Assembly (NCBI GenBank): GCA_036479435.1
Contig: JAZGFI010000030.1
Span: forward strand, 1 to 41,837
Source: Planctomycetota bacterium
GTDB lineage: Bacteria > Planctomycetota > GCA-002687715 > DRQF01
Reading direction: 5' to 3'
Length of the DNA: 41,837 nt
Positions 3,663 through 31,826 of the stretch are shown piece after piece. The notes under the pieces were generated by a model, which worked only from the letters and a program-made list of their open reading frames with translations, had not been told where the DNA came from and made no database searches. Made by a program: the position numbers and the translations under genes. Numbering within the stretch: position 1 is the stretch's first letter; each line of letters begins with the position of its first letter.

Positions 3663-5057
3663 ATGATGGACTTAGATGACGTCAAAGCTTTGATCGCCGC
3701 GGGTGAATCCGACACCTGTGAGTGGAAAAAGAGTAGCAGCCAGCTCTCGCGCGCTGGGGAGACCTTGTGCGCCTTTTTGAATGGAGGTGGCGGAACGGTC
3801 CTTTTGGGGGTCGGCCCCACCGGTAAATTGTTGGGCCAAACAGTGTCTGACAAGACGCTACGTGATATTGCTCACACGCTCGCGAGAATTCAGCCTCATG
3901 CGTCCGTCGTCGTCGAGGAGATTCCACTTAAGGACGATCTCAAGGTGATCGCCTTGAAGACTAGTCCGGACCCCAATCACCAACCCTATCTTTACGATGG
4001 GCGCCCCTATCAACGCAGCGGGCCCACCACCGCCCATATGCCGCCTGACCTCCTCTACCGCCAGGTCCTCTCACGCCCTGAGAACGAGAACTTGTGGGAG
4101 GGCCGTATTGCTGCTGGGTTCTCAATGGCAAACTTAGACCGGGAAGAGATCATCCGCGCTGGCCACCGTGGCGCTGCCGCCCTCGGAGTACCCGTCGATC
4201 TCAAGAATAGCCCAGAAGAAATCTTACGTGGTTTTGACCTTCTCGCGGAAGATGGACACATTTGGAATGCCGCGATGGCCCTGTTCGCGAAACCGCTGTC
4301 TTCGGGACCACGTCTTTTTCAATGCCTGCTGCAGCTGGCCCTCTTCAAGGGCACGGATAAGATGGAGTTTCTCGACCAAAAGAACGTCGAAGGCGGCGCT
4401 TTCAACATGTTGAGCGAAGCCGAGTTGTTCATTCGGCGACATATGCCGGTCGCGGCGAAGATCACTCCTCGGCAATTTGAGCGCGAAGAGACTCCCCTTC
4501 TTCCCTGGGATGCCGTGCGGGAAGCCTTGATTAACGCCCTCATTCACCGTGACTACGCTGATCAAGGCCGGTCAATCACGGTGGCCATCTATGACGATCG
4601 ACTGGAGATCTGGAATCCAGGACGACTTCCTGCGGGTATCGAGCTCGAACAATTGAAGAAGAAGCACGATTCTGTGCGACGGAATCGGCGCATCGCCGAT
4701 GCCTTTCATCGCACGGGGCTTATCGAAAAGTGGGGGCGCGGCACGCAAACTATGGTGGCGCTTTGCAAGGATATGGGTCGCGCCGAGCCTATCTTTGAAG
4801 AGAGGCAGCAGAGTTTCGGAGTCATCTTCCCCGCGCCGTTTAAGGCGACAAAGATCGTCACCTCAATTAGTCTGACCCCGCTTCAGAACGAGATCCTTGC
4901 GCGGCTGAAGAGCGCTCAAGCCATTTCGTTGCGCCAGGCTATGGAAGAGACGGGCGCTGCGCGCCGAACCGTACAGCGGGCGCTAAGCGCATTAGTCAAA
5001 GCGGGCCACCTGGTCGGTGAAGGCGCTAGCCAGCACAGGGTTTACCGCCGCGTGTAG
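3663..5057 (+). CDS. AlbA_2 (Schlafen-like) + HATPase_c_4 (RecG C-terminal-like) + winged-HTH protein
   Basis: N-terminal GESDTCEWK...CAFLNGGGGTVLLGV; central AVREALINALIHRDY, IYDDRLEIWNPGRLP, RN..IA..F...GLIEKWGRG; C-terminal HTH (RRTVQRALSALVKAG). Confidence 0.9.
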   Translation: MMDLDDVKALIAAGESDTCEWKKSSSQLSRAGETLCAFLNGGGGTVLLGVGPTGKLLGQTVSDKTLRDIAHTLARIQPHASVVVEEIPLKDDLKVIALKTSPDPNHQPYLYDGRPYQRSGPTTAHMPPDLLYRQVLSRPENENLWEGRIAAGFSMANLDREEIIRAGHRGAAALGVPVDLKNSPEEILRGFDLLAEDGHIWNAAMALFAKPLSSGPRLFQCLLQLALFKGTDKMEFLDQKNVEGGAFNMLSEAELFIRRHMPVAAKITPRQFEREETPLLPWDAVREALINALIHRDYADQGRSITVAIYDDRLEIWNPGRLPAGIELEQLKKKHDSVRRNRRIADAFHRTGLIEKWGRGTQTMVALCKDMGRAEPIFEERQQSFGVIFPAPFKATKIVTSISLTPLQNEILARLKSAQAISLRQAMEETGAARRTVQRALSALVKAGHLVGEGASQHRVYRRV

Positions 5058-28701: not shown

Positions 28702-29100
28702 CTAGTTGGCGGCTGGCTCAAGGGTGAAGTCGAGGTCCTTAGTCACAAACCCCTCGATCGGCGCGGTCTTTTCGCCCGTGGCTCGGTCCGGAAGCAGGTA
28801 GTACCCCATCAAGACTTCCTTCATCGACATCTTTTCTGATCCGATGGGTTTGATCCTGAAATGGGCGGAGAACTGCCCCACCCGCTCGACCATTCTTGTG
28901 AACCCTTTGAATTCGAACCCGACCAACTCTCTGCGATCGAAGGACAAGAAATAGGTCAGGAAATCATCAACGCGGCACGTGAAATAATCATCTGCAGTGG
29001 CATGGCAGGTCAGCGCATCGTCATCTGAATCGAAATAGAAGTGCGGTTTGAACTCCGAAGGAGGGTTCGCTGCGACGTGTTTCTTCAGTTCGTCGGCCAT
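28702..29100 (-). CDS. Hypothetical acidic protein, DUF2283-like
   Basis: SD GGGAG; FYFDSDDDAL...ELVGFEFKG resembles the Y-D-x-x-x-D-x-L / ++G+E+ pattern of DUF2283. Overlaps the upstream gene by 16 nt. Confidence 0.6.
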   Translation of the reverse strand: MADELKKHVAANPPSEFKPHFYFDSDDDALTCHATADDYFTCRVDDFLTYFLSFDRRELVGFEFKGFTRMVERVGQFSAHFRIKPIGSEKMSMKEVLMGYYLLPDRATGEKTAPIEGFVTKDLDFTLEPAAN

Positions 29101-29494
29101 AGTCTTCTCCCGAATCGATCTGAGTACCCTTCTGGAAGTGAGGAGTCAACGGCGGAACACCTTTCGAACCGCCATTTTCGTATTCGACCCTCTCGACTAA
29201 TGAATACCAAAAACACAAATCCAGGGGGAGCGGGAACTTCTGCATCGAGCCCCCCCAAATATCGAATCCTGGGTGACGAGACGAAACAAAAATCGCGTTC
29301 TCGACCCTCTCGGCTCAAGCCCTCAAAGACGGCCCTCGGAGACTTGAGAGATTGAGGAATGAGGAATGAGGAATGAGCAGCATGTCGTAGTAGCTCTGAG
29401 GCGCGAAGTTTCGGACTCTTCTCACAACCTGGTTGGGTATCGTCGTTGTCCATCTCCCTCCGTCGAGGGGGTTAAGCGTGTCTTGTACGTCCAT
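29085..29494 (-). pseudogene. Hypothetical protein gene, apparently frameshifted at a 7-nt tandem repeat (pseudogene or phase-OFF allele)
   Basis: The frame from ATG 29494 (MDVQDTLNPLDGGRW...YYDMLLIP) joins the C-terminal frame (LIPQSLKSPRAVFEGL...RFGRRLWPTN) exactly if two repeat units are removed. As given, it stops after 59 aa at 29315. Confidence 0.6.
29353..29377. repeat. 7-bp tandem repeat (GAATGAG) x3 plus partial, intragenic
   Basis: tgag-gaatgag-gaatgag-gaatgag read directly from the sequence. Confidence 0.92.
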
Positions 29495-29619
29495 CGTGAC
29501 GAGTAGTTAGCTTCTGCTGAGGGAATGCGATGGCCCTTCCAATTCTGGGCCTACGCCGTGAAAGCCGTACTTTTTGGCCAAGAGTGACGGGCAAAAGTGA
29601 AAAGATCTCTGAACTGAAT

Positions 29620-30165
29620 GCGGGCTAAGGTAGGGTTCACCCCGAGAGTGGGATTGCAAGACTCTCCCGACCACCGCCATAGATCGGCGCGCCACGGCGC
29701 ATCGATCGGTCAGGCACGGTGGTTTGCCTTGCGGTCCACTGATCCAACGGAAGCTAGACGAGATTCCGTGATCAGGTCCAGTTGTTTGAACTCTGAACGT
29801 TGCCAGCTTCAGCGAAACTGAAGTGGAAGCTCTACGCTCGCGAAGCGTAAGACTCAAGGTGACCGTGACGTGTTGACGGTTGGCCTGGTGCCCCCAGGAT
29901 CGAAGGAGCCCAGATGACGAGCGCAGCCAAAAACAAGGTCTCTCGAAACCGCAGGCGGTTAGATGGACTTAAACTTCTCCATGAATCCCTGTGCGGTGCA
30001 GACCCCGTCGATGAAACCGACTTTTGGGGGTGGATAGGTTCACACAGTGCGAACAAAGGCAATCAGATCAGTCGGCAGCGCGAACTGAGCACGCTGCAAA
30101 CTTTATCTGATGGGTCCACGAGACGCTGCCAGGCATAGAAGACGCGAAGCTGCTTTACAGCCCGC
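29620..30165 (+). ncRNA. Candidate large structured non-coding RNA (~546 nt), family not recognised
   Basis: 5'/3' closing helix (29620-29633 with 30150-30165, including G-U pairs) enclosing about ten consecutive stem-loops; no long ORF. Confidence 0.55.
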
Positions 30166-31826
30166 TAAGGCTGAGTTTTGCGAGGACCGACTCTCATCGT
30201 CGGCGAATTCTGCGAGATATTCGGAATTGCGACTCGGCTTGTTTGCCCGCCGCCCCGCTCCTTCATCTGATTCACGATTTCCATAGCGTTTTGATGCCAC
30301 CACATCGACGCTTCTTGATCGCCCCACTTTCTCGCATCCACACAGCGAGATAGGGCCCGCGAAAACTCGGCCGCCGTCGCCGGCCTCTCCGCTGGGTCCT
30401 TTGCGAGCGCCAAAAGCAAAACCTTTTCCAAATCAGTCGGTACGGAGCATCCCAATCTCAGTGATGGTGCCTCGGGCGCTTCTTCAACTTGCTGCCGCAA
30501 AAGCTCGGCCACCGTTTTTGCCTGGAAGACGTGAGAACCTGTCAACAAGTAGTAGCCAACCGCTCCCAGGGCATAAAGATCGCTGCGAGCATCGGCCGAC
30601 GACGGGTTCTCAATCGCCTCCGGCGACAAATAGCGCGGCGTGCCGATGAGCGATTCGCTTTCCCCAGGAACATGGGCGGGATCGTCGACCGGCGGCTTTA
30701 CCAATCCAAAATCCAAGACTTTGGCGAAGTCGTAAATCCCACCCCTTGAACAAAGGATGATGTTCGCAGGTTTGATGTCTCGATGCACGAGGCCTCGATC
30801 GTGCGCTTCTTGGAGTGAGCCCAGTACCTGCGTCAAGATGTGAATGACTCTTGCGGGGTGTTGCGCCCCGTGTTTCGCGACCAGTTGTTGCAAATCAAAG
30901 CCCGCAAGGTATTCCATCGCGTAGTAAAAGACGCCGTCATCGGTGCTGCCGTAGTCAAAGATGCCGATCGTATTCGGATGGGTGAGCTCACTAGTGATCT
31001 GCACTTCGCGTTCAAAGCGTTTGAAGTCATCGTAGGCGAACTTGCCCGTCGCCAAGATCTTGATCGCCGTGGGGCGACGAAGCAGCGCATGTGATGCGCG
31101 ATAGACGGCTCCCATACCCCCTTCGCCGATCTTTTCTTCCAGTCGATATTGGCCGAGCTGCTGCGCTTCTTTGACCTCGCGGCGCAAACCATAGACCACA
31201 CGCACCGCAAACACCGACAGGACGACCGTGATCAACGACCAACTCAAAAACACGGCCACCTTGAGTGCCGGGCCGACCGCGCTTGCGCCTTCCGCGACGC
31301 CGAACTCCATGACCGCCGGCACGAAACCCGGAAGCACCGAGGCCGAGGCCAAGAGCAAGGCAACTCGCGGCGAACCCGGCACCAAAAACGCGCGCAACAC
31401 CAACATGTTCGAAACCGCGAGGAGCCCGTGGTATTCCTGGGCGGGAATGAAATGCTCTGCCCATCCATAGGCCGCACAAATTGATGCGAGAACGAAAGTC
31501 CCCCCGACGTCGAGGTAGCGTAAAACACTGGCTTGCAGACGCCACTTGCTCAAGACCAAGATCAAGGCCACATTCACCAAGACCTGCAGCAGATTCAGCG
31601 CGTTGCACGCGCCGAAGAACCAATCCCCAAAAGGGCCGGGCTCCTTCCACATTCGCGCGACCGTGATCAATGTGAAGAACAACAAGCCCAGCCCCAGCAC
31701 CACCATGTTGAAGGTGCGAACACGGGCCGCGAGAAAGTCTCTACCCTCGCTGGACGGAGCCGACCTGGACATCGTGCGCTGCGCGGCAAAGTTCAGCTCT
31801 GGGGATCGATTTCTCGGCTCGGACAT
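30165..31826 (-). CDS. Membrane-bound Hanks-type Ser/Thr protein kinase
   Basis: About 6 N-terminal TMs; IGEGGMGAVY, AIK, HRDIKPAN, DFGL, GTPRYLSPE, DLYALG. Confidence 0.96.
   Translation of the reverse strand: MSEPRNRSPELNFAAQRTMSRSAPSSEGRDFLAARVRTFNMVVLGLGLLFFTLITVARMWKEPGPFGDWFFGACNALNLLQVLVNVALILVLSKWRLQASVLRYLDVGGTFVLASICAAYGWAEHFIPAQEYHGLLAVSNMLVLRAFLVPGSPRVALLLASASVLPGFVPAVMEFGVAEGASAVGPALKVAVFLSWSLITVVLSVFAVRVVYGLRREVKEAQQLGQYRLEEKIGEGGMGAVYRASHALLRRPTAIKILATGKFAYDDFKRFEREVQITSELTHPNTIGIFDYGSTDDGVFYYAMEYLAGFDLQQLVAKHGAQHPARVIHILTQVLGSLQEAHDRGLVHRDIKPANIILCSRGGIYDFAKVLDFGLVKPPVDDPAHVPGESESLIGTPRYLSPEAIENPSSADARSDLYALGAVGYYLLTGSHVFQAKTVAELLRQQVEEAPEAPSLRLGCSVPTDLEKVLLLALAKDPAERPATAAEFSRALSRCVDARKWGDQEASMWWHQNAMEIVNQMKERGGGQTSRVAIPNISQNSPTMRVGPRKTQP

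What the first reader, a model, noticed from the sequence alone, without database searches (positions are those of the whole stretch)
29620..30165. Candidate ~546-nt ornate non-coding RNA with paired ends
Seen: GCGGGCT-AAGGTAG (29620-29633) pairs with CTGCTTT-ac-AGCCCGC (30150-30165), 14 bp with a 2-nt bulge. The two non-Watson-Crick positions are both G-U pairs on the + strand, which fits an RNA helix better than a DNA inverted repeat. Inside are back-to-back stems: gagagt/actctc (29644-29666); accaccg/cggtggt with inner gatcg/cgatc (29670-29723); ctgatc+acggaa/ttccgt+gatcag (29739-29775); cttcag/ctgaag (29807-29823); tacgct/agcgta (29833-29849); accgt/acggt (29862-29880); cctgg/ccagg (29884-29898); aaccg/cggtt (29947-29960); ctgtg/cacag with inner cccc+gtcg/cgac+gggg (29989-30047); atcagat+gcagcg/cgctgc+atctgat (30062-30111). 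Several loops contain GAAA, GCGA or GCAA. This is the only long gene-free gap in a tightly packed window. Known: large bacterial ncRNAs of this size class exist (OLE, ROOL, GOLLD, MISL). I found no RNase P, tmRNA or group I/II intron signature. Inference: a large structured RNA, possibly a new class.
Basis: partly seen in the sequence, partly recalled or inferred. Interest (0 to 1): 0.82.

Follow-up and report, generated by a model that had tools for sequence, protein, structure and literature searches.

The report
Orphan hairpin-rich gap, candidate RNA
A roughly 550-base stretch with no protein gene folds into more hairpins than shuffled sequence and may be the gene for an uncatalogued large RNA, but no relative or transcript was found, so this remains unproven.

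Summary
All 15 stem pairs I checked are present as stated. The stretch is single-copy and shows no coding signal. It folds better than shuffles: z −2.7 (+) and −3.1 (−) for the whole stretch; −3.2 (+) for local Watson-Crick folding. That is only moderately unusual here: 11 of 268 other long gaps score as well, some of them coding DNA. The paired ends are not exceptional under a fair null. Rfam gave no hit to E=10 within the element. tmRNA, RNase P, SRP and a 6S candidate lie elsewhere in the genome. No homolog turned up in 400 phylum genomes or in the viral, metagenome and genome collections, so covariation could not be tested. Expression is untested. The left neighbour is a frameshifted gene of a patchy two-gene cassette, which shrinks the gap to 670 nt. 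A second end helix (29644-29664/30173-30195) and a 7-bp direct repeat at both ends are new observations. Best reading (about 40%): a horizontally acquired, stand-alone, ROOL-sized structured RNA on the + strand. Rivals: ordinary gap, insertion remnant, minus-strand leader. The scan has not noted this sequence elsewhere.

The parts
29620..30165 (+). Candidate structured RNA as bounded by end helix a (may run to 30195 if helix b is used)
   Evidence: no coding signal in six frames; A132/U103 and G163/C148 on +
29620..29633 (+). 5' arm of end helix a (pairs with 30150-30165; 14 bp, 2 G-U)
30150..30165 (+). 3' arm of end helix a; its last base is the last base of the kinase stop codon on the other strand
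29644..29664 (+). 5' arm of end helix b (6+11 bp, 2 G-U); competes with the local hairpin 29644-29666
   Evidence: pair probability 0.99 when 29540-30200 is folded; -26.5 kcal/mol on + against -17.5 on -
30173..30195 (+). 3' arm of end helix b; crosses helix a; antisense to the last codons of the kinase gene
29669..29724 (+). Long interrupted hairpin (7+3+6+4 bp)
   Evidence: pair probabilities 0.93-0.99
29739..29775 (+). Hairpin 6+6 bp
29807..29898 (+). Run of four short hairpins (29807-29823, 29833-29849, 29861-29881, 29884-29898)
29947..30047 (+). Hairpins 29947-29960 and 29963-29982, and the stem-loop 29989-30047; the pairing of the outer stems is ambiguous
30062..30111 (+). Interrupted hairpin 7+3+6 bp
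   Evidence: pair probabilities 0.95-0.98
29624..29630 (.). 7-bp direct repeat, left copy (540 nt from the right copy)
   Evidence: family D2
30164..30170 (.). 7-bp direct repeat, right copy; covers the kinase stop codon
29085..29494 (-). Gene A of a two-gene cassette; split between two reading frames at a heptamer repeated three times (29357-29377)
   Evidence: 3' part: 12 of 300 other phylum genomes, 287 representatives; 5' part aligns with the G001 homolog, E 6e-5; heptamer array unique in the genome
28702..29100 (-). Gene B, 132 aa, DUF2283-like fold
   Evidence: follows gene A in several loci
30165..31826 (-). Membrane Ser/Thr kinase gene, convergent with the + strand candidate
   Evidence: PF00069; closest relatives 54-55% identical

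Best explanation
The stretch is the gene for a stand-alone, non-essential, large structured RNA of about 545-575 nt on the + strand. It was acquired horizontally and sits between a kinase operon end and a decaying two-gene cassette. Proposed working (inferred, not shown): it is transcribed from an unrecognised promoter in 29495-29620, divergent from the cassette. Its ends are closed by one or both long-range helices. About ten hairpins present purine-rich loops that dock on helices, giving a compact and possibly multimeric RNA-only scaffold like ROOL or GOLLD, not a ribozyme or guide RNA. SHOWN: non-coding, single copy, more hairpins than shuffles, no catalogued family. INFERRED: transcription, strand, boundaries, tertiary packing, horizontal origin and function.
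For: No coding signal in any frame over 29520-30170. No Pfam match to E=0.1 for six stop-to-stop frames in the gap. Folding better than shuffles. Both end helices are stronger on + through G-U pairs. The + strand is purine-rich with A above U (A132/U103, G163/C148), like the genome's RNase P RNA. YGAA words: 12 on + against 3 on -; 12 of 336 long gaps reach 12 (statistic chosen after seeing the sequence). The size is close to ROOL's 581-nt average (PMC5737381, passages). The cassette's other copy in this genome has a leader of only about 60 nt and the G001 copy follows a gene directly, so the 546-nt piece is an extra unit. A low folding z does not exclude an RNA: the genome's tmRNA and RNase P score -0.07 and -1.4.
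Against: No homolog found anywhere, so no covariation. 11 of 268 and 8 of 50 other long gaps fold as well. End helices not exceptional under a fair null. Local folding with G-U favours the minus strand: 12 hairpins on - (0 of 60 shuffles) against 5 on + (52 of 60); the core 29730-30115 has z -0.75 on + and -2.0 on -. Unpaired-A enrichment on + is below the shuffle mean. No sigma-70-type promoter or terminator is found, although most tRNA genes of this genome show a clear one by eye. No tRNA in the window, unlike the usual ROOL/GOLLD context.
Confidence: 0.4

Rival explanations
1. Ordinary intergenic or decayed DNA. It holds the cassette promoter and the end of the kinase operon. The hairpins are what a GC-rich 550-nt gap gives in the upper tail of chance, picked out by eye, and no functional RNA is made.
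For: Background ranks, where coding segments reach z below -3. 5 of 152 coding tiles hold as many perfect hairpins. Fair null for the end helices. The two strands give conflicting signals. The neighbouring gene A is frameshifted, so the region is decaying. No conservation found.
Against: 0-2% of shuffles reach the observed folding in several measures. Most gaps in this window are tiny. No trace of a decayed protein gene was found. The absence of homologs is weak evidence because the organism has no close kin in the collections: five of six tested proteins are singletons at 90%, and the sixth clusters only with near-identical copies.
Confidence: 0.3
2. A non-autonomous mobile-element remnant: a 540-bp unit inserted at the kinase stop codon and bounded by a 7-bp direct repeat. 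Its hairpins served as single-stranded DNA or RNA signals for an enzyme supplied in trans.
For: The direct repeat coincides with both ends of helix a and duplicates the stop codon region. DNA folding is also better than shuffles (z -2.35 and -2.13). The neighbour cassette is patchy in the phylum. The one weak hairpin-only model match not inside a gene lies just upstream of an ORF that looks by eye like a HUH (Y1) transposase (label from recall; about 0.4 such hits expected by chance).
Against: One copy in the assembly. No terminal inverted repeat inside the direct repeats. No IS110 transposase, TnpB or IscB domain in the assembly (92% complete, 299 contigs; the control for one search was silent). 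13 direct-repeat families of 8 nt or more occur in these 851 bases, so a short repeat is cheap.
Confidence: 0.17
3. A minus-strand cis-acting RNA: a structured spacer or leader on read-through transcripts from the kinase operon into the two-gene cassette, acting as an attenuator or processing site.
For: The kinase, the gap and genes A and B are all co-oriented on minus, and no terminator is found between them. Local folding with G-U is stronger on minus.
Against: Other copies of the cassette lack such a leader (models R1 and R2 found nothing in 13 cassette loci). Minus-strand loops shrink to 3 nt and the strand is U/C-rich. Both end helices lose pairs on minus.
Confidence: 0.13

Closest known systems
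ROOL RNA (Rfam RF03087; PMC5737381 passages; PMC12286853 section 6)
   Same: Size (about 546-575 nt against a 581-nt average), paired 5' and 3' ends, many stems, possible crossing helices, no adjacent partner gene.
   Different: No match to the model. No tRNA or recognised phage gene nearby. Here a Planctomycetota genome. The junctions and pseudoknots could not be tested.
GOLLD RNA (Rfam RF02032; PMC12286853 abstract)
   Same: Large multi-hairpin non-coding locus of patchy occurrence.
   Different: No match; 0 of 150 phylum genomes rang with the GOLLD model (control silent); no tRNA context.
OLE RNA (about 600 nt; PMC12054373, start of abstract in listing)
   Same: Size class.
   Different: No Rfam match. 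OLE is mostly found in Bacillota and has protein partners; none is recognisable among the Pfam hits of the window.
HEARO / IscB omega-RNA (RF02033)
   Same: A few short words looked alike from memory.
   Different: Rejected by test: RF02033 gave 0 hits, and a profile from 16 upstream regions of RRXRR-domain genes of this phylum found nothing in the region.
MITEs and other non-autonomous insertion elements (recalled)
   Same: Short inverted ends and a 7-bp direct repeat.
   Different: Single copy, no terminal inverted repeat inside the direct repeats, no matching transposase among three families tested.

Membership tests
ROOL | Match to the covariance model RF03087 | tested here: not met
   cmscan to E=10; genome search, (its 14 control genomes were silent too)
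ROOL | Length near 581 nt | tested here: met
   546 nt (helix a) to 576 nt (29620-30195); PMC5737381
ROOL | [quoted passage not shown] | not testable with these tools
   no homologs found
ROOL / GOLLD | Often next to tRNA genes or in prophages | tested here: not met
   0 tRNAs in the window; no phage structural domain among 32 ORFs by Pfam (PHROGs not scanned)
GOLLD | Match to RF02032 | tested here: not met
tmRNA / RNase P / SRP / 6S | Family model or motif match; role not already filled in the genome | tested here: not met
   no hit; tmRNA on C17 and RNase P on C271, SRP on C252, a 6S candidate below cut-off on C271; no alignment above shuffles
Group I intron | Match to RF00028; interrupted host gene | tested here: not met
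   0 hits to E=10 in the genome while 8 of 14 controls rang; the flanks are not halves of one gene
Group II intron | Domain 5/6 signature | tested here: not met
   a D5 motif was found on C57 and C84 only; no Rfam hit inside the element; the weak D1-D4-1 hit (E 0.2) lies in gene A
HEARO / omega-RNA | Model match and a linked IscB/IsrB/TnpB gene | tested here: not met
MITE | Many dispersed copies | tested here: not met
   1 copy in a 299-contig assembly
MITE | Target-site duplication | tested here: inconclusive
   7-bp direct repeat at both ends; no empty site available
Large ornate ncRNA (as a kind) | Discrete, abundant transcript | not testable with these tools
   needs RNA data from this organism
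MISL | Consensus structure | not tested
   name recalled only; not found in the papers searched; covered only in so far as Rfam 15 holds a model

The most novel reading that the evidence does not exclude
The founding member of an uncatalogued class of large ornate RNA in Planctomycetota. It is about 575 nt long, its two ends are locked by two crossing helices (29620-33/30150-65 and 29644-64/30173-95) around ten loop-presenting hairpins, and it assembles into an RNA-only particle and travels as a 540-bp insertion.
Probability: 0.25. Interest if true: 0.8.

Novelty: new variant of a known kind. Interest (0 to 1): 0.4.

Why it matters
Bacterial RNAs above 500 nt with intricate folds are rare. The known ones are ribozymes or, for ROOL and GOLLD, protein-free nanocages of unknown function (PMC12286853, abstract and section 6). 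An unrelated one in a Planctomycetota lineage would add an independent case for asking what such RNAs do, and it can be tested cheaply by in vitro transcription. Without homologs or expression it is a lead, not a discovery, and it may be an ordinary gap.

Tried and rejected
Expression: no RNA holder listed among 11 runs; this is no evidence either way. Four runs were laid as contigs; X9 had no cover over the element. Rfam: 0 hits in the window at gathering score; 2 chance hits in 29100-30400; 0 in 29540-30210. DNA homolog searches: 0 of 40 relatives; 0 of 8 family genomes; 10 of 400 phylum genomes with only 25-45-nt scattered matches; phages and plasmids only short matches at E 0.5-0.6. Covariance models R1-R3 were built from the one sequence aligned with its own copy, so they carry no variation. 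R1: 0 of 22 class genomes, 1 of 149 phylum genomes, and that hit lies in what reads as a coding gene. R2: 2 of 22 at 18.6 bits without the R1 part beside them, 0 of 149. R3: 1 of 149, hairpin only, and 0 of 5 family genomes. Exact-pattern scans of the viral, genome and metagenome collections gave 135 loci whose flanks score at the null (35.3+-4.0 against 36.8+-5.6). Multi-seed scans with translations of the non-coding frames: 0 confirmed of 17, 16, 295 and 212 candidates. Resemblances from memory to group I P/Q/R/S elements, tmRNA, RNase P and omega-RNA were tested and dropped. Resemblances to the c-di-GMP riboswitch, attC sites and tRNA halves were dropped on inspection and on Rfam silence; the relaxed ARAGORN intron scan gave only noise. 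The tuned-window test of the crossed helices (0 of 933) was post hoc and was overturned by the fair null. The GCGAAGC mini-hairpin is not enriched in the window (23 against 18.8). Synteny through the kinase or the cassette led to no locus with the element. Paper searches listed nothing on such an RNA in Planctomycetota; most subscription papers are not in that library.

Full report
SETTING. The window is contig C30 of genome G000 (5.47 Mb, 299 contigs, 92% complete). The genome is from Planctomycetota, judged from the name of the closest kinase hit, the Atlas clusters of gene B and earlier notes on this genome. It has no close relatives in the collections: the kinase's best hits are 54-55% identical, and five of six tested proteins are singletons at 90% identity. 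This limits every comparative test below.

THE OBSERVATION. The 546-nt stretch folds at -207.5 kcal/mol on + (z -2.70, 1 of 100 shuffles) and -210.1 on - (z -3.06, 0 of 100). It has 12 perfect hairpins against 4.5+-2.2 in shuffles (2 of 1000). Local Watson-Crick-only folding gives z -3.2 on + and -1.7 on -. The sequence is confirmed by contigs of runs X4 (whole stretch; may be the source), X7 and X8 (pieces), with no other letters inside the element. A Markov coding model scores no frame above zero in 29520-30170. That model is also weak on gene A, so this is soft evidence; Pfam and tblastn-confirmed scans of the frames found nothing either.

HOW UNUSUAL. It is less unusual than shuffles suggest. 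11 of 268 other long gaps score z -3.2 or lower by the Watson-Crick test. Inspection shows a tRNA pair, repeats, terminator-rich gaps and plain coding DNA among them. With G-U pairs and a 150-nt span, 8 of 50 gaps equal the target's better strand. 5 of 152 tiles elsewhere in the window hold 12 or more hairpins. On the other hand the genome's real tmRNA and RNase P RNA score only -0.07 and -1.4, so energy neither proves nor excludes an RNA.

ENDS. Folding a wider stretch shows a second long-range helix, 29644-29664 with 30173-30195 (6+11 bp, two G-U, probability 0.99). Both are stronger on + (-19.2 and -26.5) than on - (-14.9 and -17.5). With windows tuned to the target the pair beat 933 of 933 null draws. 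When placement was optimised in the null as well, it was ordinary (-48.1 against -46.7+-4.8, n=186). Including the extension lowers the + strand z to -1.75. A 7-bp direct repeat lies at 29624 and 30164, 540 nt apart, and the right copy covers the kinase stop codon.

STRAND. For +: G-U pairs in both end helices, purine-rich composition like RNase P, 12 YGAA words against 3 (post hoc; 12 of 336 gaps reach 12), and better Watson-Crick-only folding. For -: better local folding with G-U and 12 hairpins against 5; in the RNase P control the sense strand had the larger count (9 against 2). I put + at about 65%. No sigma-70-type promoter or terminator is found on either strand, while most tRNA genes show a TTGA-N17-TANAAT-like site by eye.

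NEIGHBOURS. On the right is a membrane Ser/Thr kinase gene on minus whose stop abuts the element. On the left are two genes on minus. Gene A belongs to a family without a Pfam model (12 of 300 other phylum genomes; 287 representatives). It is split between two frames at a heptamer repeated three times. Gene B is DUF2283-like, and A is followed by a B homolog in several loci. The pair looks like a mobile toxin-antitoxin-type cassette (inference from the arrangement; no PADLOC match). A second copy on C277 has a leader of about 60 nt, and the G001 copy follows a gene directly. So the true gap is 29495-30164, and the element is not a regular part of the cassette.

IDENTITY. No Rfam family matches inside the element even at E=10. 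tmRNA, RNase P, SRP and a 6S candidate lie on other contigs and do not align with it above shuffles. Group I, group II, HEARO and phylum omega-RNAs, ROOL and GOLLD were tested and not met; the controls for the last two were silent. The assembly has no IscB, TnpB or IS110 domain. There is one copy in the genome.

HOMOLOGS. None was found. DNA searches covered 40 relatives, 8 family genomes, 400 phylum genomes, phages and plasmids. Three single-sequence covariance models were run over the class (R1, R2) and 149 phylum genomes; their four weak hits outside this genome were inspected and judged chance. Eight exact patterns gave 135 loci whose flanks score at the null. Four multi-seed scans confirmed nothing. 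These searches find close relatives or exact seeds only, so distant homologs are not excluded.

MECHANISM. Best reading (0.40): a stand-alone + strand RNA with closed ends and loop-presenting hairpins that packs through tertiary contacts into an RNA-only scaffold, as shown for ROOL and GOLLD. Only the non-coding, single-copy, hairpin-rich anatomy is shown; transcription and function are inferred. Rivals: ordinary gap (0.30), non-autonomous insertion remnant (0.17), minus-strand leader (0.13). It may work like ROOL or GOLLD, but it is not a member of either by the model test.

PAPERS. PMC12286853: abstract, sections 6 and 11, and passages of a supplement search; file 2 was unreadable and file 4 was cut, so the full ROOL, GOLLD and OLE alignments were not compared. 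PMC5737381: seven passages. All others: search listing and start of abstract only. Searches returned nothing. MISL, the attC and IS-end patterns, and the transposase label for L225 are recalled. Supplements of bioRxiv preprints were not available and could hold unlisted RNA classes.

VERDICT. A real, moderately structured orphan gap. A new large RNA is possible but unproven. Interest 0.40; 0.8 if expression or covariation confirms it.

Noticed in passing
window 28702-29494 (-); second copy G000:C277:2487-3370: Recurring two-gene cassette: an uncharacterised family of about 140 aa without a Pfam model followed by a DUF2283-like gene; patchy in the phylum; one member is fused to a TIR domain (P0068). 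Candidate toxin-antitoxin or defence module.
   Followed up: partly
window 29357-29377: A heptamer repeated three times, the only such array in the genome, splits gene A between two frames; slippage-type switching or plain decay. One low-depth contig of run X8 ends loose just beside it.
   Followed up: partly
G000:C23:21658-21900 (L212): The most strongly folded long gap of the genome by the Watson-Crick test (z -8.9), a multi-hairpin non-coding stretch with no Rfam hit at gathering score. A separate structured-RNA candidate.
   Followed up: partly
G000:C57:1539 and G000:C84:1023: Group II intron domain-5 motifs near contig ends.
   Followed up: no
G000:C271:8802-8988: 6S RNA candidate below Rfam's cut-off (35.2 bits against 46.4).
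   Followed up: no
window 3663-5057 (+): Schlafen/AlbA_2 domain fused to a RecG-C-type HATPase domain, with weak PADLOC hits; possible defence gene.
   Followed up: no
G000:C23:9830-10060 (L215): Cluster of short palindromic repeats in tandem and inverted copies.
   Followed up: no
L225 (G098:C101): Hairpin-rich leader directly upstream of an ORF that looks like a HUH (Y1) transposase (label from recall).
   Followed up: no
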